From NCBI RefSeq assembly GCF_042651785.1, contig NZ_JBHSEC010000003.1:72547-104546 (forward strand): a stretch of 32,000 bases of DNA, read 5' to 3'. This stretch comes from Chungangia koreensis (lineage in GTDB: Bacteria; Bacillota; Bacilli; Bacillales_A; Planococcaceae). Numbering within the stretch: the first letter of the stretch is position 1; every line of letters begins with the position of its first letter. Of the stretch, positions 14,614 through 27,503 are shown piece after piece. The translations under genes and the position numbers were made by a program. The notes below the pieces were generated by a model. That model ran no database searches and had not been told where the DNA came from. It saw nothing but the letters and a program-made list of their open reading frames with translations.

Positions 14614-14647
14614 TTAATAACTATTCAGAAAAAAGGGGATATTGAAT

Positions 14648-15568
14648 ATGGATTTAAAAGATTGTTCTTTACTACTATCTTTATATGAAGAAAAAAATTT
14701 GAGAAAAGTCGCTGAAAAACTTTATATATCCCAACCTGCAATTACATATCGTTTGAAACAGATTGAAGATAAGTTTCAAGCACGTTTAGTGGAAAGGACC
14801 AATAAAGGAGTTGTCTTTACTTTGGAAGGCGAGCATGTCGTGAAATTTGCCCAGACAATGCTAAATGAGTTTTCCGCTGCAAAGGACTATGTTTATAACA
14901 TGAGCAGCGAAGTCCGTGGAGTTCTTAGACTATCAGTTACCAGTAATTTCGCCCAATATATTTTACCTAATCTCCTTAAGAGATTCTCAGAGCAGTATCC
15001 CAATGTGCAAATACATCTTAAAACAGGAAAGAGCAAAAATGTCCTTCAGCAGCTTAAAGATGACGATGCCCATCTCGCTATTTTAAGAGGTGATTACGCT
15101 TGGCTGGAGGAAAAAAAGAAAATCCATCAAGAAAGGATCCTTCTTATTTCAAAAATCCCTTTAAAGATGGAAAATCTCCCTGACTATCCTCGGATTTTTT
15201 ACGTAACGGATCAACTATTAAGCCAGATTATCGATAACTGGTGGACCGAAAACTACTCATCTCCTCCAAACAATGTAGTGGAAGCCGACAAGGTAGAGGC
15301 TTGCAGGGATTTGGCGAGAACAGGAATGGGGTACACAATCATCCCTGAAATTTGCCTTAGCAAATCACATTTTGACGAGATGTTTGTGTACCCTCTTAAA
15401 AGTCCTCAAGAAGACTTAACTATTCGGAATACTTGGCTTCTCCATAAAAGGAAATCCCGAGAATTATCTGTAGTAGATGCCTTCATTGATTTTATCGAAA
15501 ATGAATTGAAATCCGGTGAGATCATTCGCGTTTTCAATCCGGAAGAACATGTCGAACTTCTAATTTGA
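14648..15568 (+). CDS. LysR-family transcriptional regulator
   Basis: The start is trimmed to ATG 14648 (MDLKDCSLLLSLYEEKN...), 8 nt after AAGGGGA. There is an N-terminal wHTH (LRKVAEKLYISQPAITYRLKQIEDKF) and a LysR substrate-binding domain. Confidence 0.85.
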   Translation: MDLKDCSLLLSLYEEKNLRKVAEKLYISQPAITYRLKQIEDKFQARLVERTNKGVVFTLEGEHVVKFAQTMLNEFSAAKDYVYNMSSEVRGVLRLSVTSNFAQYILPNLLKRFSEQYPNVQIHLKTGKSKNVLQQLKDDDAHLAILRGDYAWLEEKKKIHQERILLISKIPLKMENLPDYPRIFYVTDQLLSQIIDNWWTENYSSPPNNVVEADKVEACRDLARTGMGYTIIPEICLSKSHFDEMFVYPLKSPQEDLTIRNTWLLHKRKSRELSVVDAFIDFIENELKSGEIIRVFNPEEHVELLI

Positions 15569-16600
15569 AAGCAGCAGACCATCGTCATAGTTTTTGAGAA
15601 TCCCCTTACCCGATACAAGGGGGTAGTGGCATGCAACGGAATGTCCCTCTTCAAATGCATTTAACTCAGGTGTTTCTTGTTTACAAAGGTCAGTTGCGTA
15701 TGGACATCTAGTATGGAACCTGCATCCACTTGGCGGATTGACGGGACTCGGAAGATCCCCCTCCAAAACTTGTCGGGTTCCTCTTTTTCTTAATGTTGGA
15801 TCTGGTATTGGAATAGCCTGCAATAATCCTTCCGTGTATGGATGAAGAGGCTTGCTGAATAACTGCTCCTTCGTTCCAAGCTCAACGATTTTCCCTAAAT
15901 ACATCACTGCAATTCGATCGCTTATATATTTTACAGCTGGTAAGCCATGGGCGATAAAAATATAGGTAAGTCCGAACTCCTTTTGTAACTTTGCAATTAA
16001 ATTCAAAATCTGTGATTGTACCGATACATCCAGGGCAGAAACTGGCTCATCACAAATAATAAGCTTCGGATTTAATGCAAGAGCCCTTGCAATGCCGATT
16101 CGCTGCCTTTGACCACCGCTAAACTCATGTGGATATCGGTTCGCATGCTCCGGACGAAGTCCTACAATCTCCAAAAGTTCCTTTACTCGATTCTTCAATT
16201 CTTTGCCCCTATGCAATTTATGGGCAATTAAAGGTTCGGCTATAAGATCAAACACCTTTAAACGTGGATTTAGCGAAGAAAAAGGATCTTGAAAAATCAT
16301 CTGTATATGCTTCCGCTCCTGTCTCAATTCACTCTTGGACAGTTTGGTCAGATTTTTACCGTTAAAAATAATAGTCCCTTCGGTTGGTTCAAGGATATTC
16401 ATAATCAGGTTTCCTGTTGTTGACTTTCCACAACCTGACTCCCCTACAATGCCTAAGGTTTCCCCTTTTTTCACTTCAAAGGCAACACCATCAACAGCTT
16501 TCAAAAATTCCTTGCTTTTGGAAAGGAAACCTGACTCGAGCTCGAAGTATTTCTTTAGATCCTTTACTTGTAACAAGACTTCCTCATTCGACGATTGCAT
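15560..16600 (-). CDS. Oligopeptide/dipeptide ABC transporter ATP-binding protein (OppF/DppF type)
   Basis: Walker A GESGCGKST, signature FSGGQRQR, Walker B LIICDEPVSALD. The C-terminal oligopeptide-type extension carries a Cys cluster (CRFHTRCPYATDLC). Confidence 0.88.
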   Translation of the reverse strand: MQSSNEEVLLQVKDLKKYFELESGFLSKSKEFLKAVDGVAFEVKKGETLGIVGESGCGKSTTGNLIMNILEPTEGTIIFNGKNLTKLSKSELRQERKHIQMIFQDPFSSLNPRLKVFDLIAEPLIAHKLHRGKELKNRVKELLEIVGLRPEHANRYPHEFSGGQRQRIGIARALALNPKLIICDEPVSALDVSVQSQILNLIAKLQKEFGLTYIFIAHGLPAVKYISDRIAVMYLGKIVELGTKEQLFSKPLHPYTEGLLQAIPIPDPTLRKRGTRQVLEGDLPSPVNPPSGCRFHTRCPYATDLCKQETPELNAFEEGHSVACHYPLVSGKGILKNYDDGLLLSN

Positions 16601-17585
16601 GCTGGGTCACCACCTCTTCTTTATGCAGCCAGCAGCGCACTTGATGTGTTTCATCACCAAATAATTCAGGAGAATGCTCACGGCAATGATCCATTCTAAG
16701 TGGACAACGAGAATAAAACCTACAACCCTTCGGCCAATTCGAAGCGCTTGGAACTGATCCTGGAATTGCCTTCAGTTCATCTTCCAGTTCATGTACCTTT
16801 GGTGTACTTTCCATTAGACCGACCGTGTATGGGTGCTTCGGCTCCTTGAAAATAGTAAATACGTCCGACTCTTCAACAACTTGACCAGCATACATGACAA
16901 TCACTTTATCAGCCATCTCAGCAACTACACCTAAGTCATGGGTAATGATTATAATAGACGTATTAAATTCCTCTTTTAACTCAAGCATCAGATTCAAGAT
17001 TTGCGCCTGTATGGTAACATCAAGCGCTGTCGTCGGCTCATCAGCAATGAGTATTTTCGGGTTACAAGAAAGAGCCATGGCAATCATTACCCTTTGCCTC
17101 ATACCACCGCTAAGTGAGTGAGGGTAAGATTCGTATATCTTCTCTGGCCTGGCTATGCCCACCTTCTTCAGTAATTCAATACTCTTAGTTTTCGCTTCCT
17201 TTTTACTAACAGATTGATGCAGCAGAATCGTTTCCGCTATTTGCTCACCAACTTTAAAAACCGGATTGAGCGATGTTAAAGGTTCCTGAAAAATCATGGA
17301 TATGTCATTCCCACGGATTTTCCGCATTTCGCTTTCCTTAATTTTCGCCAAGTCCTTACCATCAAATAGAATAGAACCTCCGTCGATTTTTCCAGGAGGG
17401 TTTATTAAACGGAGGATAGAGAAAGACGTGACGCTTTTTCCGCAACCGGATTCGCCGACGATTGCAATTGTTTCTCCTTTATTCATGGTAAATGAAACAC
17501 CATCAACCGCCTTTACCTGCCCATCTTCTGTATAGAATGATGTTCTAAGATTCTCAACTTTAAGTGCTATATTCTCCAATGCCAT
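16584..17585 (-). CDS. Oligopeptide/dipeptide ABC transporter ATP-binding protein (OppD/DppD type)
   Basis: The start is trimmed to ATG 17585 (MALENIALKVENLRTSF...), which shares one base with the upstream stop (TGATG). Walker A GESGCGKSV, signature LSGGMRQR, C-terminal CRFYSRCPLRMDHC. Confidence 0.88.
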   Translation of the reverse strand: MALENIALKVENLRTSFYTEDGQVKAVDGVSFTMNKGETIAIVGESGCGKSVTSFSILRLINPPGKIDGGSILFDGKDLAKIKESEMRKIRGNDISMIFQEPLTSLNPVFKVGEQIAETILLHQSVSKKEAKTKSIELLKKVGIARPEKIYESYPHSLSGGMRQRVMIAMALSCNPKILIADEPTTALDVTIQAQILNLMLELKEEFNTSIIIITHDLGVVAEMADKVIVMYAGQVVEESDVFTIFKEPKHPYTVGLMESTPKVHELEDELKAIPGSVPSASNWPKGCRFYSRCPLRMDHCREHSPELFGDETHQVRCWLHKEEVVTQHAIVE

Positions 17586-18505
17586 CACCCCTCCATCTGC
17601 AACCGCGGATCCAAAACATCGCGCAGCCAGTCGCCTAAGAAAATGATTCCTAAAACAGTTACTGTAATGGCAATACCAGGGAAAGTAGAAATCCACCATG
17701 AAGTGGCTAAATAATCACGTCCACTTTCCAAGATTCCTCCCCAAGAAATCATCGGGGGTTGAATCCCCATACCTAAATAACTGAGGGAAGCTTCCAGTAG
17801 GATGGCAGTCGCAATACTTAATGTCGATACGACGATAAATGAGGAAATGACATTCGGTAGAATGTGCTTGAATATGATTCCTCCATCTTTTGTGCCTAAA
17901 GTTCTGGATGCCTTTACAAAGTCCCGTTCCTTAATAGATAGGACCTCCCCTCTTACAAGGCGGGCGTATGTCACCCATTTGGTTGCACCAATTACAAATA
18001 CTAACGTCCAAAGGCCTGGACCAAATACTCCCAAGACGACTAACATAAATAAAATATTCGGAATCGCAAGGACGGCATCAACCCCGCGCATGATGAAATT
18101 ATCTAATAAACCACCATAATATCCCGCAAATAGTCCAAGTACGAGTCCTATTGCACCGGCAATCCCAATAGCACAAACCCCTACAATTAGAGATACTTGT
18201 GTTCCCACAATAATTCTACTCAGTAAATCTCTTCCTAAGTTATCAGTTCCAAGTATATGTTCAGAAGTCCCACCCTCCATCCAGAATGGGGGTTTGTTAA
18301 TCATAATAGGATTGATTGAATTTGGATCAAAAGGTGCCAGCTGATTTGCAAAGATACCTACGATCGTAACAAGCATGACAATGACGAAACCGATCATTCC
18401 GGTTTTACTTTTCCATAATTTCCGTACAAGGCGGATAAATTCATTCTTTCTTTTAATATCTTCCCCTGCAATTTCGATTAACGACTGCTTAGTTGGTGCC
18501 TGCAT
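17585..18505 (-). CDS. Peptide ABC transporter permease (OppC/DppC type)
   Basis: The start is trimmed to ATG 18505 (MQAPTKQSLIEIAGEDIKRK...), which follows GGGGGAGGGG. It has six TM segments and the N-terminal OppC-type extension. Confidence 0.85.
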   Translation of the reverse strand: MQAPTKQSLIEIAGEDIKRKNEFIRLVRKLWKSKTGMIGFVIVMLVTIVGIFANQLAPFDPNSINPIMINKPPFWMEGGTSEHILGTDNLGRDLLSRIIVGTQVSLIVGVCAIGIAGAIGLVLGLFAGYYGGLLDNFIMRGVDAVLAIPNILFMLVVLGVFGPGLWTLVFVIGATKWVTYARLVRGEVLSIKERDFVKASRTLGTKDGGIIFKHILPNVISSFIVVSTLSIATAILLEASLSYLGMGIQPPMISWGGILESGRDYLATSWWISTFPGIAITVTVLGIIFLGDWLRDVLDPRLQMEG

Positions 18506-18518
18506 ATTTCCCCTCCCC

Positions 18519-19436
18519 CTAGTTGTACTTAATGCGGGGATCAAAGATCCTATATAAAATATCCGCAATTAAATTCAAGAAAATGACCATGATCGCTACG
18601 ACAAATACTGCAGCTTGAACTATTGCCATATCCCGGCCGTTTACTGCCTGAACTAATAATTGTCCAAGTCCTGGATAGGAAAATACCACTTCCGTTACTA
18701 ATGCTCCACTCACAAGAGTGGATATTTGAAGGAACAGGATGGTGATTACCGGGACAAGTGAGTTTTTAAATCCATGCTTCATAATAAGCGTAAATGGTTG
18801 TACTCCTTTGCTCTTAGCAGTCCGTATGTAATCCTGCTGAAGAATTTCAAGCATGCTCGAACGGATTAACCTTGTCATCTCAGCAGAAACTGCAGTTCCT
18901 AAAGTAATTGAAGGGAGGACAAGATGCCTCCAAGTCTCATTACCGGACACGGGTAAAACTTGTAGCATTACTCCAAAAACGAGCATAAGCATGATACCCA
19001 GCCAAAAGTTTGGCATTGCTTTACCTAATATCGAAAAACCGGTTACAAACATATCAAGGAATGTGTTCCTTTTAACAGCCGAAATGATTCCTGCCGGTAT
19101 AGCAATAAGTACCGCTACCACCATGGAAGTCAAAGCAAGTATTAAGGTTGCCGGAAGACGTTCCATGACGATTGGCAAAGCAGGTTGAGCATAACGGAAT
19201 GACTGGCCAAAATCTCCTTGCACTAAATTGAGTAGAAAATAACCAAACTGAACCGGTACTGGTTCATTCAACTTCAGTGCTTCCCGGAGATTTTCAATAT
19301 CTTCTGGAGTGGCATCCTCAGGAAGCATCAACGATACGGGATCCCCTGCCATGTACACAAGGAAAAAAACAATGAAGGTTATCAAAATTAAAACGGGTAC
19401 AATTTGCAAAATCCTCTGCCTTAAATACTTCCCCAT
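18519..19436 (-). CDS. Peptide ABC transporter permease (OppB/DppB type)
   Basis: The start is trimmed to ATG 19436 (MGKYLRQRILQIVPVLILITFIVFFL...), 6 nt after AGGAGG. The N-terminus is the canonical OppB type, and the protein ends ...DPRIKYN. Confidence 0.88.
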   Translation of the reverse strand: MGKYLRQRILQIVPVLILITFIVFFLVYMAGDPVSLMLPEDATPEDIENLREALKLNEPVPVQFGYFLLNLVQGDFGQSFRYAQPALPIVMERLPATLILALTSMVVAVLIAIPAGIISAVKRNTFLDMFVTGFSILGKAMPNFWLGIMLMLVFGVMLQVLPVSGNETWRHLVLPSITLGTAVSAEMTRLIRSSMLEILQQDYIRTAKSKGVQPFTLIMKHGFKNSLVPVITILFLQISTLVSGALVTEVVFSYPGLGQLLVQAVNGRDMAIVQAAVFVVAIMVIFLNLIADILYRIFDPRIKYN

Positions 19437-19499
19437 ACCTCTCCTCCTAATGGGAAGAGAAGACAAGCATGAAATCACTTGTCTTCCCGATTCCCGATA

Positions 19500-21086
19500 T
19501 TATTTCAATTTAATGTTTTCGATTATAAACATTTCATCTACACGTGGTTCAAATTCAAGGCGATCATTAACTCCGTAAAAACTGTACACTTGGAATAGTG
19601 GAACAATCGGCACTTCCTCAGCAACAATTTCTTGAACCCTCTTGTATTGCTGTTCACGCTCTTCAGCATTCAAATTAACGTTTGCTGCATCCAATAATTT
19701 ATCGACTTCATCGTTTTTATAGTCATTAATGGAATCGGCACGTTCAGAATGATAATAGTCAAGGGCTTGTGCTGCATCGAATAATGAAGCCCCTAAAGCA
19801 ATGAAATAGGCATCCTTATGCTCTTCTGCTTTACGAAGATCAACGAATGCTCCCCATTCCATGAACTCCAGTTTTGCAGTGATACCAGCTTGTGCAAGCA
19901 TTCCCGCTATCATTTCTACAGTAGCTTTGTCCTGGAAATAACGGCCATTTGGTGAATGGAGAGTAATTTCCACTCCTTTTTCATATCCAGCTTCCTTAAG
20001 TAGACTCTTCGCTTTTTCCAAATCATAATTGTATTTTCCGAATAGATCTTCATTAATACCGAAGTTTCCTGGATTCATACGTGTTAACGTCGGTTTTCCA
20101 CCGCCGCCAAGAATATGGTCAACGAGGGCTTGATCGTCAATTGCATAATCGATTGCCTGACGAACTTTAACATCAGAAGTCGGATATCCTTCCGTTACAC
20201 GTAGGAATAGCATCATCGTCCGGTTAACCGGTCCAGTAACGACATCTGTTCCGTCATTGTTTTTAATCCGTTCCCAATCCGTAGGAGGAACTTCTGTTGC
20301 AATATCCACTCCGCCTGTCAATAATTCAGCAACCCTTGTGGAGTTCTCAGGGATAGCCCTGAATACAACTTGCTCCCATTCCGTATTCACACCATTAAAA
20401 TAGTCATCGTTTCTCTCCAATACAACACGGTCATCTTTTTTCCACTCAACAAATTTGAATGGACCCGTTCCTATAGGATTTTCCAAGAAATAGTCAAATC
20501 CGTTCTCTTCAATATATTTACTCGGCAGCATCCCCGAACCGAGGCGCGCAACACGATTTAACAATACTGGGTCTACTTCGAACGTTTTAATATGAACTGT
20601 ATAATCATCAATGATTTCAACCGATTCTATTTGCTTATAGTTAGGGTGCTCACGCAATGAAGAATCTGTCGCCACCCGCTCTAAACTATATTTAACGTCA
20701 GCAGCTGTGAAGGGATCACCATTGTGGAATTTAACATCATCCCTCAACTTGAATTCCCAAGTATGGTCATCGACAAGTTTCCACTCTTTCGCCAAATCAG
20801 GGACAATCGTTCCATTTTCGTTTTTAACCAAGTAGTTATACATATTGATATGAATGGCTTCAGTTGCAGTGGTTTGGTGATTATGAGGGTCGAACGTTAA
20901 CATATCCGTCCCCATTGCGATCGTCAGTGTCAGATTTTCTTCAGCTTCGACTTTAACTGTGCCTTCATCCTTTCCCTTATCGCCCCCGGTTGACGGCTCA
21001 GTAGTACCTTGGCCGCTATCCGAACATGCTGCTATGAATAGAGACAAGACAACTAAGAATGTGAATAACAAGCGTTTATTCTTCAT
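19500..21086 (-). CDS. Family-5 (peptide/nickel) ABC substrate-binding lipoprotein (OppA/DppA type)
   Basis: 528 aa with a lipobox (LFIAACSD) and a Gly/Glu/Lys-rich tether. Size and sequence character fit SBP family 5. The SD GGGGTG lies 5 nt upstream. Confidence 0.85.
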   Translation of the reverse strand: MKNKRLLFTFLVVLSLFIAACSDSGQGTTEPSTGGDKGKDEGTVKVEAEENLTLTIAMGTDMLTFDPHNHQTTATEAIHINMYNYLVKNENGTIVPDLAKEWKLVDDHTWEFKLRDDVKFHNGDPFTAADVKYSLERVATDSSLREHPNYKQIESVEIIDDYTVHIKTFEVDPVLLNRVARLGSGMLPSKYIEENGFDYFLENPIGTGPFKFVEWKKDDRVVLERNDDYFNGVNTEWEQVVFRAIPENSTRVAELLTGGVDIATEVPPTDWERIKNNDGTDVVTGPVNRTMMLFLRVTEGYPTSDVKVRQAIDYAIDDQALVDHILGGGGKPTLTRMNPGNFGINEDLFGKYNYDLEKAKSLLKEAGYEKGVEITLHSPNGRYFQDKATVEMIAGMLAQAGITAKLEFMEWGAFVDLRKAEEHKDAYFIALGASLFDAAQALDYYHSERADSINDYKNDEVDKLLDAANVNLNAEEREQQYKRVQEIVAEEVPIVPLFQVYSFYGVNDRLEFEPRVDEMFIIENIKLK

Positions 21087-21117
21087 AAATACACCCCTTT
21101 TGTGTTTTAAATTCTAC

Positions 21118-22494
21118 TTAACCTACAGAAATCCCTTTATTAACCAAACTGTATTCATGCATAACTGTGCATATAAATTTAATCCCTTCAATAAAATCCT
21201 CAATACGAATGTTCTCATTAGGAGCGTGGATCCTTGAATCTTCGTAACCTACACCAAAACTAACAGCCGGAATATTATATTGAGCTGCTAATTTATACAT
21301 AGGACCGGTTCCTGGAGACATGGAAAAGATTTGTGGAGGCTTACCGTAAAACTTCTCCGCTTCTTTAATGGCCACTTTGGCAAGTGGATCGCCCGGATCA
21401 GTTTTAGCTGCCTTCTTACCACTGATTTTATGAATGGTAATATCCTCGAAACCATGCTTATCTAAATGTTTGCGCAGGAGAACGATTATTTCATCTGGGT
21501 CCTGATCCGGAACGAGGCGAAAATCGATTTTCACTTTCGCTTCCGAGGGCAGAACGGTTTTCGATCCCTCTCCCGTGTAGCCGGAGTAAATTCCGCAAAT
21601 GGTACAAGTAGGCTGGAAGATGAACTTCTCTTTTAATTCGTCTCCATCCAAGTTAAGGAGAAAAGATTCCAACTCCAGGTTTTTGAGCATTTCTTTTTCA
21701 TGTAAAGGCATATTGGCAAGCATCTGTTTCTCCAGTTCGCTTGGCTGGTCAACTCTGTCATAAAATCCTTCTATTTTGACACGCTCATCCGTTCCTTTTA
21801 ACGTATTTAATGCCCAAACAAGCCGCCATGCAGGATTTTCGATAATTGCTGCATTCGAGGAGTGAAGATCAGTATTCGCACCTTTCGCCCTCAGTTCGAT
21901 ATACAGCATCCCCTTTAATCCAAGGCGTATAGATAATGCTCCATCCGGCGTCTTATAACCCGACTCCCAAATGTAACCGTCTGTTTCAATAATATCCGGA
22001 GCATTTTCAATCGCATGATGAGTATAAATACTTCCGAATTCCTCCTCTCCATCTACAAAAAATTTAATGTTCACTGGAAGCTCGCCATACACTTGTTGAT
22101 ATGCATGGATTGCAGCAATACGTGCGAAAAGATTCCCTTTGTTATCAGCGACTCCACGAGCAAACAATTTTCCATCATGAATTTCTGCACCGAATGGAGG
22201 ATAATCCCATAATTCAATTGGATCCTCAGGCTGAACATCATAATGGTTATAAAATGATAATGTCTTTTCCTTATCGCTAAGGATCTTTCCATATACAACT
22301 GGATGACGCCCAGTCGGTACAATCTGAACTTCCGCGTTTAATTTCAACAAATAACCTTCAACCATTGCAGCCATTTCATCAATTCCACGAAACTGAGTAG
22401 ATACACTCGGCTGCCTGCAACCTTCCTGTAACCAAGAAATGTATTGATCTCTATGCTGATCGATATATTCGTATAAATCCTTCAATCCTGTCAT
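21118..22494 (-). CDS. M20-family metallopeptidase (ArgE/DapE/ACY1/CPG2-type dipeptidase)
   Basis: About 458 aa. Metal and catalytic motifs are NHYDVQP, ARGVADNKG and DGEEEFGS, with a dimerisation-domain insert. The start is ATG 22494 or GTG 22497; the SD is weak. Confidence 0.8.
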   Translation of the reverse strand: MTGLKDLYEYIDQHRDQYISWLQEGCRQPSVSTQFRGIDEMAAMVEGYLLKLNAEVQIVPTGRHPVVYGKILSDKEKTLSFYNHYDVQPEDPIELWDYPPFGAEIHDGKLFARGVADNKGNLFARIAAIHAYQQVYGELPVNIKFFVDGEEEFGSIYTHHAIENAPDIIETDGYIWESGYKTPDGALSIRLGLKGMLYIELRAKGANTDLHSSNAAIIENPAWRLVWALNTLKGTDERVKIEGFYDRVDQPSELEKQMLANMPLHEKEMLKNLELESFLLNLDGDELKEKFIFQPTCTICGIYSGYTGEGSKTVLPSEAKVKIDFRLVPDQDPDEIIVLLRKHLDKHGFEDITIHKISGKKAAKTDPGDPLAKVAIKEAEKFYGKPPQIFSMSPGTGPMYKLAAQYNIPAVSFGVGYEDSRIHAPNENIRIEDFIEGIKFICTVMHEYSLVNKGISVG

Positions 22495-22625
22495 CACCTA
22501 CTAAACTTATTTTTGGAATCGCTTACATAGAGAATATCAAAAATTTAAAATTTCTGATAATACATATTTTTTTCTTGTGGTGATAAAAAAATTTTATTAA
22601 GGAAATAGAAAAACCTTTCATTCCG

Positions 22626-22816: not shown

Positions 22817-22963
22817 CCATATTGCGGATTTTTGATCTCATATTGCTGCGTTTGGCATCTATATTGCGCTTTGCCGCTATCATATTGCGGCGTTTGCCGT
22901 TTATATTGCGCGATTTCCACTTCATATTGCGCGGAAACCAATTGATATTGCGTTCCAAAGGAT
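22817..22963. repeat. Seven tandem 21-bp units with an invariant ATATTGC core (array A)
   Basis: The core starts at 22819, 22840, 22861, 22882, 22903, 22924 and 22945, all exactly 21 bp apart. The units are ccATATTGCggatttttgatc, tcATATTGCtgcgtttggcat, ctATATTGCgctttgccgcta, tcATATTGCggcgtttgccgt, ttATATTGCgcgatttccact, tcATATTGCgcggaaaccaat and tgATATTGCgttccaaaggat. Confidence 0.95.
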
Positions 22964-22982
22964 TCCACCAATTTTTCCCCAT

Positions 22983-23023: not shown

Positions 23024-24128
23024 TTAAGCTAGTTTCGAACGCAAATAGGCGTTGATGAATTGATCGATGTCGCCGTCCATGACGTTGTTGACGTTCCCGG
23101 TTTCGGCGTTCGTGCGGTGGTCTTTCACCATAGAATATGGGTGGAAGACGTATGAGCGGATTTGGCTTCCCCAGCCAATTTCCTGTTGGTCTCCACGGAT
23201 TTCCAACAATTCTTTTTCACGTTCTTCGATCTTCAGTTGATACAATTTCGCTTTCAACATCTTCATCGCTTGTTCACGGTTCTTAATCTGTGAACGTTCA
23301 TTTTGACATTGAACGACGACGCCCGTCGGCATATGCGTGATCCGGACTGCGGAGTCGGTCGTATTGATGTGCTGACCGCCGGCACCAGTTGCCCGGTACG
23401 TATCGACCTTCAAATCTTCACTCTTTACTTCAATCTCGATTTCTTCATTGAACTCAGGCATGACTTCGCAAGATGCGAAGGATGTATGACGACGTCCTGA
23501 AGAATCGAAAGGTGAAATCCGTACAAGACGGTGTACGCCTTTTTCCGCTTTCAAGTAGCCATATGCATTATGCCCCTTGATGGACAATGTCACCGACTTA
23601 ACGCCCGCTTCATCACCCGCAAGATAGTTCATCGTTTCAACCTTGAAACCGCGCTTTTCAGCCCAGCGCGTGTACATGCGAAGCAGCATGGACGTCCAGT
23701 CCTGGGACTCGGTACCGCCAGCACCCGCATGCAGTTCCAAAATTGCATTGTTCTTATCGTACGGTTCGCTCAATAGTAACTGAAGTTCGAATGCTGAAAG
23801 CTGCTCAACAAAGTCCGGCAATTCGTTACTCAGTTCCGTTTGAAGTTCCTCGTCAGGCTCTTCACGAAGAAGCTCCAGCGTCATCTCCAAGTTTTCCTGC
23901 GTATCGCTCAGTTCTTTGTACTCCCCGACTAAATCCTTCAACGAATTCGATTCACTGATGACGGTTTGTGCCGCCTGCTGGTCATCCCAGAAATCAGGCA
24001 TAAGCATTTGCTCATCCAATTCAGCGATTCTGGCCTCTTTGTTTTCTAAGTCAAAGAGACCCCCTAAAGTCCGCTAATTTCTTAGCTGTTTTATCCAACT
24101 CGTTCCGGATATCTCCTAATTCCATCAT
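23024..24128 (-). CDS. prfB: Peptide chain release factor 2, translated through a programmed +1 frameshift
   Basis: Frame 0 is ATG 24128 (7 nt after GGAGGA), [25 protein letters not shown], then TGA at 24053-24051. The +1 frame continues [24 protein letters not shown]... to the stop at 23024; the ORF track shows only this part. The SPF (RISPFDS) and GGQ (GAGGQHIN) motifs are present. Confidence 0.93.
24050..24065 (-). promoter_or_regulatory. RF2 autoregulatory +1 frameshift site
   Basis: The minus strand reads AGG GGG TCT CTT TGA C: an internal SD-like AGGGGG, a 3-nt spacer, the slippery CUU, and UGA followed by C. This is the canonical prfB recoding signal. Confidence 0.9.
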
Positions 24129-24146: not shown

Positions 24147-26657
24147 TTACGAGACTGCGCCGTGGCAGTTCTTGAATTTCTTGCCGCTGCCACATGGGCA
24201 TGGGTCGTTACGTCCGACGTTCTGCGTATTACGGACCGGTTTTTTCTTAACCGGCTCGCCGCCTTCTTTCGGATTGACCGCTTGGCCTTTTGCCACTTCC
24301 TGGCGCTCTAAGTTGTTGCGGATTTCCGCTTTCATTGCGTATTTTGCCACGTCATCGCGGATTGCATCCACCATATCTTCAAACATGGCAAAACCTTCGT
24401 TTTGGTATTCACGAAGTGGATCCGTTTGTCCGTAAGCACGTAAGTGAATACCTTGACGCAATTGATCCATCGCATCGATATGGTCAATCCATTTCGAATC
24501 GATCGAGCGAAGAAGGACAACCTTCTCAAACTCACGCATACGCTCAGGTGAAAGCTCTTCTTCTTTCTCATTATACCGCTCTGTGACAGCTTCCTTGATA
24601 ACATCAATCATTTCCGCTGGAGATTTCCCCGCCAAATCGGATTGCTTGATGCGGCCTTCAGGCAATAAATTCGCCGCGATGAAATCTTCTAGACCTTTCA
24701 AGTTCCACTCGTCTTTATTCTCAGTTGCTGCAGTATAAGCACTTACCGTACGCTCGATTACTTCATCGATCATGGACTCAACAAGAGCACGTAAATCTTC
24801 GTTTTCGAGCACTTCATTCCGTTCCTTGTAAATGATTTCACGTTGCTGACGCAACACGTCATCATATTGAAGGAGACGTTTCCGTGCATCGAAGTTGTTT
24901 CCTTCTACCCGTTTCTGGGCGGATTCAACAGCACGGCTGACCATTTTCGATTGGATTGGCGCAGTATCATCCATACCCAAGCGAGTCATCATAGCCTTCA
25001 TATTGTCAGAACCGAAACGGCGCATCAATTCATCTTCCAATGAGAGATAGAATTGCGTTACTCCCGGATCTCCTTGACGACCGGAACGACCACGCAACTG
25101 GTTATCAATACGGCGGGACTCATGTCGCTCCGTACCGATAACGGCCAATCCGCCAATCTCGCGAACTCCGTCACCAAGTTTAATATCCGTACCACGGCCG
25201 GCCATGTTTGTCGCGATCGTAACCGCTCCTTTATGACCCGCTTCCAAAATGATTTCAGCCTCGCGCTCGTGGTTCTTTGCATTCAATACGTTATGCTTAA
25301 TACCACGTTTTGTTAATAAATTCGAAATCTCTTCGGACGTTTCAATCGCCACAGTACCGACCAGCACTGGCTGACCATTCTTATGGCGTTCTGCGATATC
25401 GTCAGCAACCGCATTGAATTTCCCTGACATCGAGGCGTAAATCAAATCCGCACGGTCGTCACGGATAATCGGCTTGTTCGTCGGAATGACAATAACATTC
25501 ATATTGTAAATGTTACGGAATTCCTCTTCTTCCGTCTTCGCTGTACCGGTCATACCAGATAACTTCTCATACATACGGAAGAAGTTTTGGAACGTAATAG
25601 TCGCCATCGTCATCGATTCATTCTGAATCTCTAAACCTTCTTTTGCTTCGATTGCCTGGTGAAGTCCATCACTATAACGACGGCCCTTCATCAAACGACC
25701 TGTGAAGGAGTCAACGATGACCACTTCGCCTTCCTGAACAACGTAGTCAACGTCAAGATGCATACTCACATGCGCCTTTAGCGCCTGGTTGATCGCATGG
25801 TTCAAGCGGACATGTGTCAAATCGAACAAGTTATCGATCCCAAACGCTTTCTCAGCCTTATCGACACCACTCTCCGTCAACACGACACCCTTCGTCTGCT
25901 CATCGTACGCAAAGTCTTCTTCCTTCTTCAACATACGAATAAATGCATTCGCCTGGATATAAAGAGCAGCAGCCTTTTCAGCTTGTCCAGAAATAATGAG
26001 CGGCGTACGCGCTTCATCGATCAGAATCGAGTCAACCTCGTCAATGACCGCATAGAAAAGAGGGCGCTGAACTTTATCTTCTTTATAAAGAACCATATTG
26101 TCACGAAGGTAATCGAAACCAAGCTCGTTATTCGTGCTGTACGTAATATCAGCCGCATACGCTTCCCGCTTCTCTTCCTTCGATAAGCTATTCAAATTCA
26201 AACCAACAGAAAGACCGAGGAATTCATACAAATGGCCCATTTCCGTCGCGTCACGGCTTGCCAAGTATTCATTGACCGTCACGACATGTACGCCTTTACC
26301 GGACAATGCGTTCAAATAGACCGCCATCGTGGAAGTCAACGTTTTACCTTCACCGGTTTTCATCTCAGAGATATTACCTTCATGCAGTGCAGCAGCACCC
26401 ATGATTTGAACACGGAATGGATACATGCCAAGTGCACGGCGTGCCCCTTCACGTGCAACCGCAAATGCCTCTACTAACAAATCATCAAGTGTCTCGCCGT
26501 TCTCTATACGTGTACGGAATTCATCCGTCTTAGCCCGGAGATCCTCGTCAGATAGGATTTCCATCTCATGCGCGAGCGCCTCTACCTGATCGGCAGTCTT
26601 CTCAAGACGCTTCACATCCCGCTTGTTCATATCAAACAATTTATTTAAAACGCCCAT
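24147..26657 (-). CDS. secA: Preprotein translocase ATPase SecA
   Basis: The start is trimmed to ATG 26657 ([20 protein letters not shown]), 8 nt after AGGAAG. Walker A is MKTGEGKTL. The match to B. subtilis SecA is collinear, and the C-terminus has the zinc-binding [14 protein letters not shown]. Confidence 0.95.
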
Positions 26658-26688
26658 GTATGTCACTTCCTATTCAGTATCAAACTTC

Positions 26689-26718
26689 ATTTTACCATTG
26701 TGTGATAGGCCTATGCAA
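26689..26718 (-). promoter_or_regulatory. Candidate sigma-A promoter of secA-prfB
   Basis: Minus strand TTGCAT, 18 nt, TAAAAT, with an extended -10 (TGGTAAAAT). It ends about 30 nt upstream of the secA ATG. Confidence 0.45.
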
Positions 26719-26756
26719 ATAGGCTGACAATAATAGGAACGCCGGTAGGTCGAGGT

Positions 26757-26882
26757 ATGTTTCCGATTAAAGGAAGTTTAATGCTGATTGGATTGCAGTT
26801 AATGCTGATTCCTTTTCTGGTAATGCTGATTAGATTCTACTTAATGCTAATTGGACAACAGATTCCTCTAATTTCCTCTATA
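26757..26882. repeat. Six tandem 21-bp units: four strong units with a TAATGCTGATT core and two degenerate flanking units (array B)
   Basis: The core starts at 26779, 26800, 26821 and 26842, exactly 21 bp apart. The units are atgtttccgattaaaggaagt, tTAATGCTGATTggattgcag, tTAATGCTGATTccttttctg, gTAATGCTGATTagattctac, tTAATGCTaATTggacaacag and attcctctaatttcctctata. Confidence 0.95.
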
Positions 26883-26886
26883 ACAC

Positions 26887-26917
26887 TTAAAAGAAGCCCC
26901 CGAAATCGGAGGCTTCC
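26887..26917 (-). terminator. Rho-independent terminator of hpf
   Basis: The minus RNA GAAGCCUCCG-AUUU-CGGGGGCUUC is followed by UUUU. It begins 14 nt after the hpf stop. Confidence 0.85.
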
Positions 26918-26930
26918 AACTTACACATAT

Positions 26931-27503
26931 TCAATTCGTTTCAATCAATCCATATTTACCATCTCTGCGCTTATACACGATGTGAGTGCCGTTCGATTCG
27001 GCGTCCGTGAAAATGAAGAAGTTATGTCCTAACATGTTCATTTGGAGGATTGCCTCGTCTTGATCCATAGGCTTCAAGTCGAATTGTTTCGTACGTACTA
27101 TCGGGAATTCACTATCCTCGTCATCGAGTACGGAAACGGCAGTTTCACCATTACTATTGCCATTAACCGAAGCAAAAAATGAAGCTACACCTTCTCGTTC
27201 TCTGAATTTCCGGTTCACCTTCGTTTTATATTTACGGATTTGACGCTCCAGCTTATCGCAGATCAGATCGACCGCTGCATACATATCATCGTGCCGCTCC
27301 TCTGCACGGAGAGTCAAATTCTTCATCGGAATCGTTATTTCAACCTTTGTCTGTTTATCATTGTAGACCTTGAGATTGACATTTGCTGTGGCATTCGCTC
27401 CTTCAGTGAAGTAACGTTCGAGCTTCTGAACCTTTTTCTCGACGTATTCCCGAATTGCTGGAGTTACCTCAATGTTCTCACCGCGAATGTTAAACTTTAG
27501 CAT
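26931..27503 (-). CDS. hpf: Long-form ribosome hibernation promoting factor (HPF/YvyD)
   Basis: 190 aa beginning MLKFNIRGENIEVTPAIREYVEKKVQKLERYF, close to the B. subtilis YvyD N-terminus. It has the C-terminal dimerisation domain. The SD GGAGGAG lies 6 nt upstream. Confidence 0.93.
   Translation of the reverse strand: MLKFNIRGENIEVTPAIREYVEKKVQKLERYFTEGANATANVNLKVYNDKQTKVEITIPMKNLTLRAEERHDDMYAAVDLICDKLERQIRKYKTKVNRKFREREGVASFFASVNGNSNGETAVSVLDDEDSEFPIVRTKQFDLKPMDQDEAILQMNMLGHNFFIFTDAESNGTHIVYKRRDGKYGLIETN

What the first reader, a model, noticed from the sequence alone, without database searches (positions are those of the whole stretch)
26757..26882. Array B: four near-identical phased 21-bp units (TAATGCTGATT core) plus two degenerate flanking units between the hpf terminator and the secA promoter
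TAATGCTGATT or TAATGCTAATT starts at 26779, 26800, 26821 and 26842, exactly 21 bp apart. The flanking units at 26758 and 26863 retain 7 of 11 core positions in phase. The array fills almost the whole space between the hpf terminator (26887-26917) and the candidate secA promoter (26689-26718), roughly -45 to -170 relative to that promoter. This is a typical position for an upstream activator or architectural-protein array. The ORF-track 91-aa ORF here (MLIxxxx heptads) runs through the hpf terminator and antisense into hpf, so coding is unlikely.
Basis: seen in the sequence. Interest (0 to 1): 0.7.

Follow-up and report, generated by a model that had tools for sequence, protein, structure and literature searches.

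The report
Phased 21-bp repeat array upstream of secA
Between the hpf and secA genes of Chungangia koreensis lies a real array of 21-bp repeats with a conserved 11-bp core, which looks like a row of binding sites for an unknown protein but is a species-specific extra that the conserved secA promoter does not need.

Summary
AATCAGCATTA (minus strand; TAATGCTGATT on plus) occurs exactly at 26779, 26800 and 26821. A one-mismatch copy is at 26842, and 7/11 relics are at 26758 and 26863, all exactly 21 bp apart. The array lies between a strong hpf terminator and a sigma-A-type secA promoter.

It is not coding, not a known or stably folded RNA, and not predicted to be intrinsically curved. Core columns are 95% identical and linker columns 38%. 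The conserved columns are contiguous (p=5e-5) and no indel has broken the phase. This fits sequence-specific protein binding on one face of the helix.

The organism is Chungangia koreensis. The secA promoter and leader are conserved across about 30 distinct spacers from relatives. About 20 of the 43 spacers recovered are only 125-175 nt, with no array. Other relatives carry 20-21-bp arrays at the same place with statistically unrelated cores, and copy number differs between two Sporosarcina koreensis genomes (6 versus 2 units).

Array B is therefore a lineage-specific, fast-evolving phased array in a hypervariable spacer. It is not a conserved secA activator site. Best reading: cooperative protein-binding platform, binder unknown (about 0.5). 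Main rival: functionless minisatellite (about 0.3).

The parts
26758..26883 (.). Whole array B: six in-phase 21-bp units, four intact and two decayed at the ends
   Evidence: TRF period 21, 3.7 copies, no indels; the repeat finder family D1 with five copies at spacing 21
26779..26789 (-). Core copy 1, nearest the secA promoter: AATCAGCATTA, exact, centre about -101 from the likely TSS
26800..26810 (-). Core copy 2: AATCAGCATTA, exact
26821..26831 (-). Core copy 3: AATCAGCATTA, exact
26842..26852 (-). Core copy 4: AATTAGCATTA, one mismatch
26758..26768 (-). Decayed in-phase core on the promoter side, 7/11 match
26863..26873 (-). Decayed in-phase core on the terminator side, 7/11 match to the variant core
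26889..26917 (-). hpf intrinsic terminator: 11-bp stem, 4-nt loop, then a U run
   Evidence: fold -19.4 kcal/mol, z -4.46
26689..26718 (-). secA sigma-A-type promoter: -35 TTGCAT (26718-26713), 18-nt spacer, extended -10 TGgTAAAAT (26697-26689)
   Evidence: read; the same element is conserved in about 30 distinct spacers from relatives
26674..26692 (.). Inverted copy (16/19) of the promoter-proximal array unit 26769-26787, overlapping the end of the -10 box, the TSS and the first bases of the secA leader. It could be a second binding site; its status is uncertain.
   Evidence: the repeat finder I1; 0 of 1000 dinucleotide shuffles reach 16/19; p = 0.01 by local alignment, one of 20 tests

Best explanation
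Array B is a lineage-specific, helically phased array of four intact and two decayed copies of an 11-bp recognition sequence (AATCAGCATTA in the direction of secA). The copies are spaced exactly two turns of the DNA helix apart, in the non-transcribed DNA between the hpf terminator and the secA promoter. Most likely it is a platform on which an as yet unidentified sequence-specific DNA-binding protein binds cooperatively, one unit per 21 bp, all on one face of the helix. From its position, about 75-190 bp upstream of the start of transcription, such a complex could modulate secA-prfB transcription. It might do so by looping to the inverted unit-like copy at the start site. This would be an accessory, species-specific layer and not part of the conserved promoter. 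Shown: the anatomy, the core/linker conservation pattern, the fixed spacing, the absence of coding or RNA signals, the dispensability for the promoter in relatives, and the rapid turnover. Inferred: that a protein binds, and any effect on secA.
For: The cores are 95% identical pairwise and the linkers 38%, close to saturation. The conserved columns form one contiguous block: permutation p = 5e-5 for an 11-column window. Eight other arrays of the clade show the same pattern at p = 1e-4 to 0.05. There are no indels in array B despite about 26 inferred linker substitutions. There are none in the sister array A (7 units) despite about 66, where P(0 indels) is about 0.001 at an indel:substitution ratio of 1:10. 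Spacing as well as sequence is therefore constrained. Non-coding arrays in 373 kb of related loci cluster at periods of 20-21 and 40-42 bp, which is 2 and 4 helical turns. A unit-like sequence occurs in inverted orientation at the secA -10/TSS. A known precedent for this geometry is BvgA~P, six dimers of which bind at 22-bp spacing on one face of the ptx promoter (PMC7250471).
Against: No binding protein is identified, and no regulator gene lies next to the array. The core occurs nowhere else in the 32-kb window. The secA promoter is conserved and evidently works without any array in many relatives. Arrays at the same position in relatives have cores that are not significantly alike: 36 pairs, minimum p = 0.005, not significant after correction. 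Copy number is not fixed within S. koreensis. The last intact core is 60 bp from the -35 hexamer, further than classical activator sites. The spacer is generally a dumping ground for extra DNA in this clade.
Confidence: 0.5

Rival explanations
1. Functionless minisatellite. A 21-bp unit was amplified by slippage or unequal recombination in a permissive, non-transcribed spacer, and it persists because nothing selects against it.
For: The hpf-secA spacer is hypervariable in the clade. Its length runs from 125 nt to 2.7 kb, with inserted ordinary genes. S. luteola genomes with identical Hpf differ by a 147-nt GC-rich insert. Arrays of other periods also occur: 52 bp x 6.5 in L161 and 55 bp in L135. 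Copy number is 6 versus 2 units in two S. koreensis genomes. Cores are unrelated between species. Tandem arrays are common in non-coding DNA of these genomes generally, at 0.2-0.6 per kb.
Against: Neutral decay should hit all 21 columns alike. Instead 10 of 11 core columns are invariant while all 10 linker columns vary (p = 5e-5). The exact 21-bp register has survived near-saturating linker divergence in arrays B and A. The preference for periods of 20-21 and 40-42 bp is also unexplained.
Confidence: 0.3
2. Relic or decoy of a mobile replicon. The units are iteron-like or transposase-end-like sites left by, or directed against, a plasmid, phage or transposon whose initiator, partition protein or transposase recognises the core.
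For: The architecture matches iterons: 17-22-bp direct repeats about two turns apart, with a conserved core plus variable linker, 3.5-7 copies, and replicon-specific sequence (own knowledge). The junction is an insertion hot spot. Core sequences are species-specific.
Against: There is no rep, par, integrase or transposase gene in the window. No DnaA box with at most 1 mismatch lies in 26600-27000. blastn against 72,556 plasmids finds nothing. Pattern scans of 2.9 million viral contigs find only unrelated coding heptad repeats. The genes inserted at this junction in relatives are ordinary metabolic or signalling genes.
Confidence: 0.08
3. RNA-level element. The array is transcribed, by read-through from hpf or from an unseen promoter, and its 11-nt cores act as repeated pairing or protein-binding sites, for example as a sponge or a leader element.
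For: An 11-nt core is about the length of an sRNA seed. The core is partly complementary to the start of the secA leader.
Against: The array lies downstream of a strong terminator and upstream of the promoter, and no promoter-like site lies inside it. Rfam gives no hit at gathering threshold, and only a sub-threshold hit on the terminator. Folding is no better than shuffles on either strand, z = +0.31 and -0.78. The periodicity is that of the DNA helix.
Confidence: 0.04
4. Intrinsically curved DNA upstream of the promoter. A 21-bp period adds up any bend of the unit in phase and could stimulate RNA polymerase without any specific protein.
For: The two-turn period and the upstream position fit. 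Arrays A and L153 are predicted to be curved: 104 and 83 degrees, against about 40 and 33 for shuffles.
Against: Array B itself is predicted to be no more curved than shuffles, 37 versus 38 +/- 22 degrees. The same holds for five other arrays (my own implementation of the wedge model from recalled parameters, checked on phased A-tracts). Curvature would not require an exactly conserved 11-bp core.
Confidence: 0.03
5. Protein-coding heptad repeat: the 91-aa plus-strand ORF, or a decayed gene.
For: 21 bp equals 7 codons, and one plus-strand frame is open through the array.
Against: The ORF runs antisense through the hpf terminator into hpf and has no Pfam match. Another plus-strand frame (the NAD reading) hits a stop in unit 3 and the third has a TAA in every unit, read from the sequence. 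No ORF of 20 aa or more crosses the array on the minus strand. Equivalent arrays in relatives mix 20- and 21-bp units, so they keep no frame.
Confidence: 0.01

Closest known systems
BvgA~P binding arrays at Bordetella promoters (Pptx, Pfha)
   Same: Several binding units are centred two helical turns apart (22 bp), all on one face of the DNA. They extend upstream from the -35 element of a sigma-70-type promoter and bind cooperatively (PMC7250471).
   Different: BvgA sites are head-to-head inverted heptads, mostly weakly conserved. The most proximal site abuts the -35 element, and the regulator is known. Here the units are direct repeats with a nearly invariant 11-bp core, 39-60 bp separate the array from the -35 hexamer, and no regulator is known.
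Plasmid and phage iterons (for example RK2, R6K, pPS10, lactococcal theta plasmids with 22 bp x 3.5)
   Same: Direct repeats of 17-22 bp phased about two turns apart, a conserved core with a variable linker in some replicons, 3.5-7 copies, and a sequence private to each replicon (own knowledge).
   Different: No initiator gene, no DnaA box and no mobile-element context. Whether an AT-rich unwinding region adjoins the array was not specifically tested. The array sits between chromosomal housekeeping genes.
LytTR-family operators (AgrA, ComE, PlnC, YpdB)
   Same: Direct repeats of 9-10 bp separated by 11-13 bp, giving a 21-bp centre-to-centre distance (own knowledge). Sister array A (9-bp core plus 12 bp) has exactly this unit layout.
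   Different: Those operators normally have two (rarely three) repeats directly upstream of the -35 element. Here there are 4-6 (B) or 7 (A) units placed further upstream, and no LytTR gene is in the window.
Intergenic minisatellites such as mycobacterial MIRU/VNTR loci and Staphylococcus aureus STAR elements
   Same: Tandem or regularly spaced short repeats confined to intergenic DNA. Copy number varies between strains (seen here in S. koreensis). STAR elements likewise have a short conserved core separated by variable sequence (own knowledge).
   Different: MIRU units are 40-100 bp. Both MIRU and STAR are dispersed multi-locus families with one shared unit. The arrays here have locus-specific cores, a two-turn period and an exact register.
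TAACTGA intergenic direct repeats of Beggiatoaceae
   Same: Sets of 2-6 short direct repeats in intergenic DNA of unknown function, proposed to be binding sites (PMC4679880).
   Different: That is one heptamer used genome-wide, mostly a few nucleotides upstream of start codons, and it is proposed to act on RNA. Here the cores are private to each locus, the period is 21 bp, and the array lies upstream of the promoter.

Membership tests
Iterons of a plasmid or phage replication origin | Tandem direct repeats of 17-22 bp phased about two helical turns apart | tested here: met
   Period exactly 21 bp, 4 intact and 2 decayed units
Iterons of a plasmid or phage replication origin | Cognate initiator (rep) gene adjacent, within a mobile replicon | tested here: not met
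   The ORFs of 110 aa or more that were scanned (29, covering all the long ORFs along the window) were compared with NCBIfam or Pfam, and none is a Rep, Par, integrase or transposase; the flanks are hpf and secA. No plasmid match.
Iterons of a plasmid or phage replication origin | DnaA boxes next to the repeats | tested here: not met
   No TTATCCACA with at most 1 mismatch in 26600-27000. An adjacent AT-rich unwinding element was not specifically tested.
LytTR-type response-regulator operator | Direct repeats with about 21-bp centre-to-centre spacing | tested here: met
   11-bp core plus 10-bp linker gives 21 bp
LytTR-type response-regulator operator | Two (rarely three) repeats lying directly upstream of the -35 element | tested here: not met
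   4-6 units; the last intact core is 60 bp upstream of the -35 hexamer
LytTR-type response-regulator operator | A cognate LytTR regulator encoded in the genome | not testable with these tools
   None in the window. The rest of the C. koreensis genome could not be reached: it was absent from the contig look-ups and from the genome scan.
NarL/BvgA-type phased activator array | Binding units every 21-22 bp on one face, continuing down to the -35 element | tested here: inconclusive
   The spacing is met, but continuity to the -35 element is not: 39 bp without a recognisable unit lie between 26757 and 26719.
NarL/BvgA-type phased activator array | Each unit is an inverted repeat of two half-sites | tested here: not met
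   The core AATCAGCATT matches its own reverse complement at only 6 of 10 positions, read from the sequence. The units are direct repeats.
MIRU/VNTR-type intergenic minisatellite | Head-to-tail units in intergenic DNA | tested here: met
MIRU/VNTR-type intergenic minisatellite | Copy-number polymorphism between strains | not testable with these tools
   No second C. koreensis genome was reachable. The analogous array of S. koreensis has 6 versus 2 units in two genomes.
MIRU/VNTR-type intergenic minisatellite | A dispersed family with the same unit at many loci | tested here: not met
   The core occurs only in this array within the 32-kb window. Cores of nine arrays are not significantly alike. 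A genome-wide test was not possible.
CRISPR array | Repeats of about 23-55 bp separated by unique spacers of similar length, usually with cas genes | tested here: not met
   11-bp core and 10-bp linkers that still resemble one another (38% identity); no cas genes.
Known structured RNA (Rfam) | A match to a covariance model, or folding better than shuffles | tested here: not met
   0 hits at gathering threshold, and only a sub-threshold Phe_leader hit on the terminator. Folding z = 0.31 and -0.78.

The most novel reading that the evidence does not exclude
Array B would be one member of a clade-wide class of 'orphan' iteron-like arrays in Planococcaceae. These are helically phased (20-21 or 40-42 bp) rows of private recognition sites that arise and turn over quickly in non-transcribed spacers, somewhat enriched just downstream of hpf. 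They would serve as chromosomal titration or decoy platforms for DNA-binding proteins, either host regulators or the initiator, partition or packaging proteins of invading plasmids and phages. They would not act as classical promoter operators.
Probability: 0.07. Interest if true: 0.8.

Novelty: new variant of a known kind. Interest (0 to 1): 0.42.

Why it matters
If a protein does bind, this would be a lineage-specific regulatory or architectural layer on secA-prfB, two essential genes whose promoter is otherwise strongly conserved. The wider pattern is unusual for bacterial intergenic DNA. Several species carry helically phased arrays at the same position, with conserved cores and fixed register within each array but unrelated cores between species. 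That pattern offers a compact system for asking how binding-site arrays are born, kept in phase and replaced. If nothing binds, the arrays show that bacterial minisatellites can mimic operator arrays closely, which is a caution for motif-based regulon prediction.

Tried and rejected
1. Same-core arrays elsewhere. A scan of 185,579 species' genomes for two exact cores 0-30 bp apart gave 82 scattered hits in unrelated taxa and none in Chungangia. The source genome appears not to be in that collection. Exact look-ups of its Hpf also failed. A genome-wide census of the core was therefore impossible.

2. Phage or plasmid origin. blastn against plasmids found no match. Five pattern scans of viral contigs returned only perfect tandem repeats, or coding heptad repeats inside long ORFs, in unrelated viruses.

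3. A common motif across arrays. By eye I saw GCTRAT and TTGCG in several cores and a resemblance to the secA -35 region. A permutation test on nine cores was not significant after correction (minimum p = 0.005 over 36 pairs). Local alignment of each array to its own flanks was significant only for the inverted copy in C. koreensis. These resemblances are withdrawn.

4. Intrinsic curvature is not predicted for array B.

5. RNA structure or family: none found.

6. Coding is rejected (and the 20/21-bp mixed periods in relatives).

7. Mobile-element insertion at the junction. The long spacers in relatives hold ordinary genes (a ThiD-type kinase, a drug/metabolite-type transporter, a GGDEF protein), not integrases.

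8. Literature searches on repeats in Sporosarcina, on secA promoters and on the core sequence itself found nothing relevant. The exceptions were the BvgA and TAACTGA analogies.

9. L083 (GCA_029263895.1) ends in an IS256-like transposase right after hpf and was uninformative.

Full report
**What is there**

The window comes from Chungangia koreensis. Its Hpf protein is 100% identical to the NCBI entry for that species. The next relatives, Sporosarcina species, are at most 86% identical. All genes near the finding lie on the minus strand:
- hpf, 26931-27503
- secA, 24147-26666 as listed; the real start is probably the ATG at 26657
- prfB, 23024-24127, with its usual +1 frameshift site

Read in the direction of these genes, the hpf-secA spacer contains the following, in order:
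- a strong intrinsic terminator at 26917-26889 (-19.4 kcal/mol, z = -4.5);
- the array;
- 39 bp of unique sequence;
- a sigma-A-type promoter: TTGCAT at 26718-26713, an 18-nt spacer, and TGgTAAAAT at 26697-26689;
- a leader of about 25 nt with a ribosome-binding site.

TRF finds 3.7 copies of a 21-bp unit at 26778-26855 with no indels. The core AATCAGCATTA (TAATGCTGATT on the plus strand) is exact at 26779, 26800 and 26821. It has one mismatch at 26842. It occurs nowhere else in the window. In-phase relics at 26758 and 26863 keep 7 of 11 positions, with p about 0.011 each.

**What it is not**

- *Not coding.* The only open frame is the 91-aa plus-strand ORF. It runs antisense through the terminator into hpf and has no Pfam match. 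Equivalent arrays in relatives mix 20- and 21-bp units, so they keep no reading frame.
- *Not a known or structured RNA.* Rfam gives nothing at gathering threshold and only a sub-threshold hit on the terminator. Both strands fold no better than shuffles. The array lies after a terminator and before the promoter, and has no promoter-like site inside it.
- *Not predicted to be curved.* My wedge-model calculation gives 37 degrees, against 38 +/- 22 for shuffles.

**Signs of constraint**

Core columns are 95% identical between units, and linker columns 38%, close to saturation. The conserved columns form one block, with permutation p = 5e-5. Eight other arrays of the clade show the same contiguity at p between 1e-4 and 0.05. 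The caveat is that units in the 20/21-bp arrays were anchored on a seed.

The register has survived about 26 inferred linker substitutions in array B without an indel. It has survived about 66 in the neighbouring array A (22819-22965, seven units, core ATATTGCGS). There, P(no indel) is about 0.001 at an indel:substitution ratio of 1:10.

A period of 21 bp is two turns of the helix, so all cores face the same side. This combination is the signature of cooperative, sequence-specific protein binding to DNA. That reading is an inference; no protein has been shown to bind.

**Comparison with relatives**

I recovered 43 hpf-secA spacers from genomes and metagenomes, and later six more loci.

The secA promoter and leader are conserved in every distinct spacer where they could be located, about 30 in all. 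About 20 of the 43 spacers are only 125-175 nt, and TRF finds no array in them. In the short spacers read base by base, the terminator lies within about 25-60 bp of the -35 hexamer. The array is therefore dispensable for this promoter.

Other relatives have their own phased arrays in the same place:
- S. limicola: 7-8 units, AGCGACTRATYCT, periods 20/21/41
- S. koreensis: 6 units, TTTATGCGT
- metagenome locus L126: 9 units, RTGGCTAWTA
- L121, L153 and others

These cores are not significantly alike. Two S. koreensis genomes differ by 4.5 units.

The spacer is also variable in other ways. Whole genes are inserted in some species. There are 52- and 55-bp arrays in L161 and L135. S. luteola genomes with identical Hpf differ by a 147-nt GC-rich insert.

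In a rough tally, tandem arrays are about three times denser in the spacer downstream of hpf than in other non-coding DNA of the same loci. The counts are 11 in 17 kb against 8 in 38 kb, p = 0.015. Non-coding arrays cluster at periods of 20-21 and 40-42 bp.

**A local detail**

The 19 nt at 26674-26692 cover the end of the -10 box, the start site and the first bases of the leader. They are an inverted copy (16/19) of the promoter-proximal array unit at 26769-26787. No dinucleotide shuffle of the flank out of 1000 reaches this. By local alignment, p is 0.01, in one of 20 tests. The four relatives tested show nothing similar. It could be a second site for the same protein, allowing a loop over the promoter. 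It could also be the sequence from which the unit was copied. It is not established.

**Interpretation**

The best-supported reading is a cooperative protein-binding platform of unknown partner, with confidence about 0.5. It is lineage-specific and accessory, and possibly modulates secA-prfB.

The main rival is a functionless minisatellite in a permissive spacer, at about 0.3. That rival explains the turnover and the unrelated cores. It does not explain the core/linker contrast or the preserved register.

A relic of, or decoy for, a mobile replicon is the most novel reading not excluded. It has no positive support: there are no mobile genes, no DnaA boxes, and no plasmid or viral counterpart.

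**Relation to known systems**

In geometry the array works like the BvgA arrays of Bordetella promoters (PMC7250471), like plasmid iterons, and like LytTR operators. In dynamics it behaves like a VNTR. It fails at least one defining feature of each family tested, so I do not file it as a member of any of them.

**Limits**

The rest of the C. koreensis genome could not be searched. I therefore cannot say whether the core occurs elsewhere or whether a cognate regulator exists.

Noticed in passing
window 22819-22965: Array A: seven units at exactly 21-bp spacing with the core ATATTGCG(G/C) on the plus strand. It lies between the prfB terminator and an M20 peptidase plus oligopeptide ABC transporter operon. 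Core identity is 0.89 and linker identity 0.34, with no indels. It is predicted to be curved: 104 degrees against 41 +/- 22 for shuffles.
   Followed up: partly
window 26674-26692 and 26769-26787: A 19-nt inverted repeat (16/19) links the promoter-proximal array unit to the secA -10/TSS/leader. 0 of 1000 dinucleotide shuffles reach it, and p = 0.01 by local alignment. It is not seen in four relatives.
   Followed up: partly
window 24050-24056 (minus strand), within 24035-24127: The prfB gene carries the classical programmed +1 frameshift site: AGGGGG TCT CTT TGA C. The first short frame starts at about 24127, and the listed 331-aa ORF is the second frame.
   Followed up: yes
window 26655-26666: The mechanical secA ORF starts at GTG 26666, inside the ribosome-binding site GGAAGTGA. 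The real start is probably ATG 26657 (MGVLNKLFD...).
   Followed up: partly
L190 2105-2265 versus L191/L193 (Sporosarcina luteola): Genomes with identical Hpf differ by a GC-rich insert of about 147 nt in the hpf-secA spacer. Similar GC-rich text appears at the ends of L090 and L121. It looks like a dispersed MITE-like element.
   Followed up: no
L096 2222-2560: An array of 16 or more units of 21 bp (core TTGTAGATA / TTGTCGATA, with a higher-order period of about 63-126 bp). It fills a 1-kb spacer between a chemoreceptor gene and hpf, where C. koreensis and others have a PilZ gene.
   Followed up: partly
L161 3641-4014: 6.5 nearly identical copies of a 52-bp unit lie directly after the hpf terminator in a metagenomic relative. 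This is a young array of a different period at the same position.
   Followed up: no
L122 3700-4126: In this relative, hpf is followed not by secA but by what looks like an rRNA operon promoter region (repeated TTGACA...TATAAT) and the start of 16S rRNA.
   Followed up: no
window 14642-22497: An M20 peptidase, a five-gene oligopeptide/nickel-type ABC transporter operon and a convergent LysR-type regulator lie between prfB and the yitT-cytochrome c-ftsEX block. From memory, this block is absent from the equivalent place in Bacillus subtilis.
   Followed up: no
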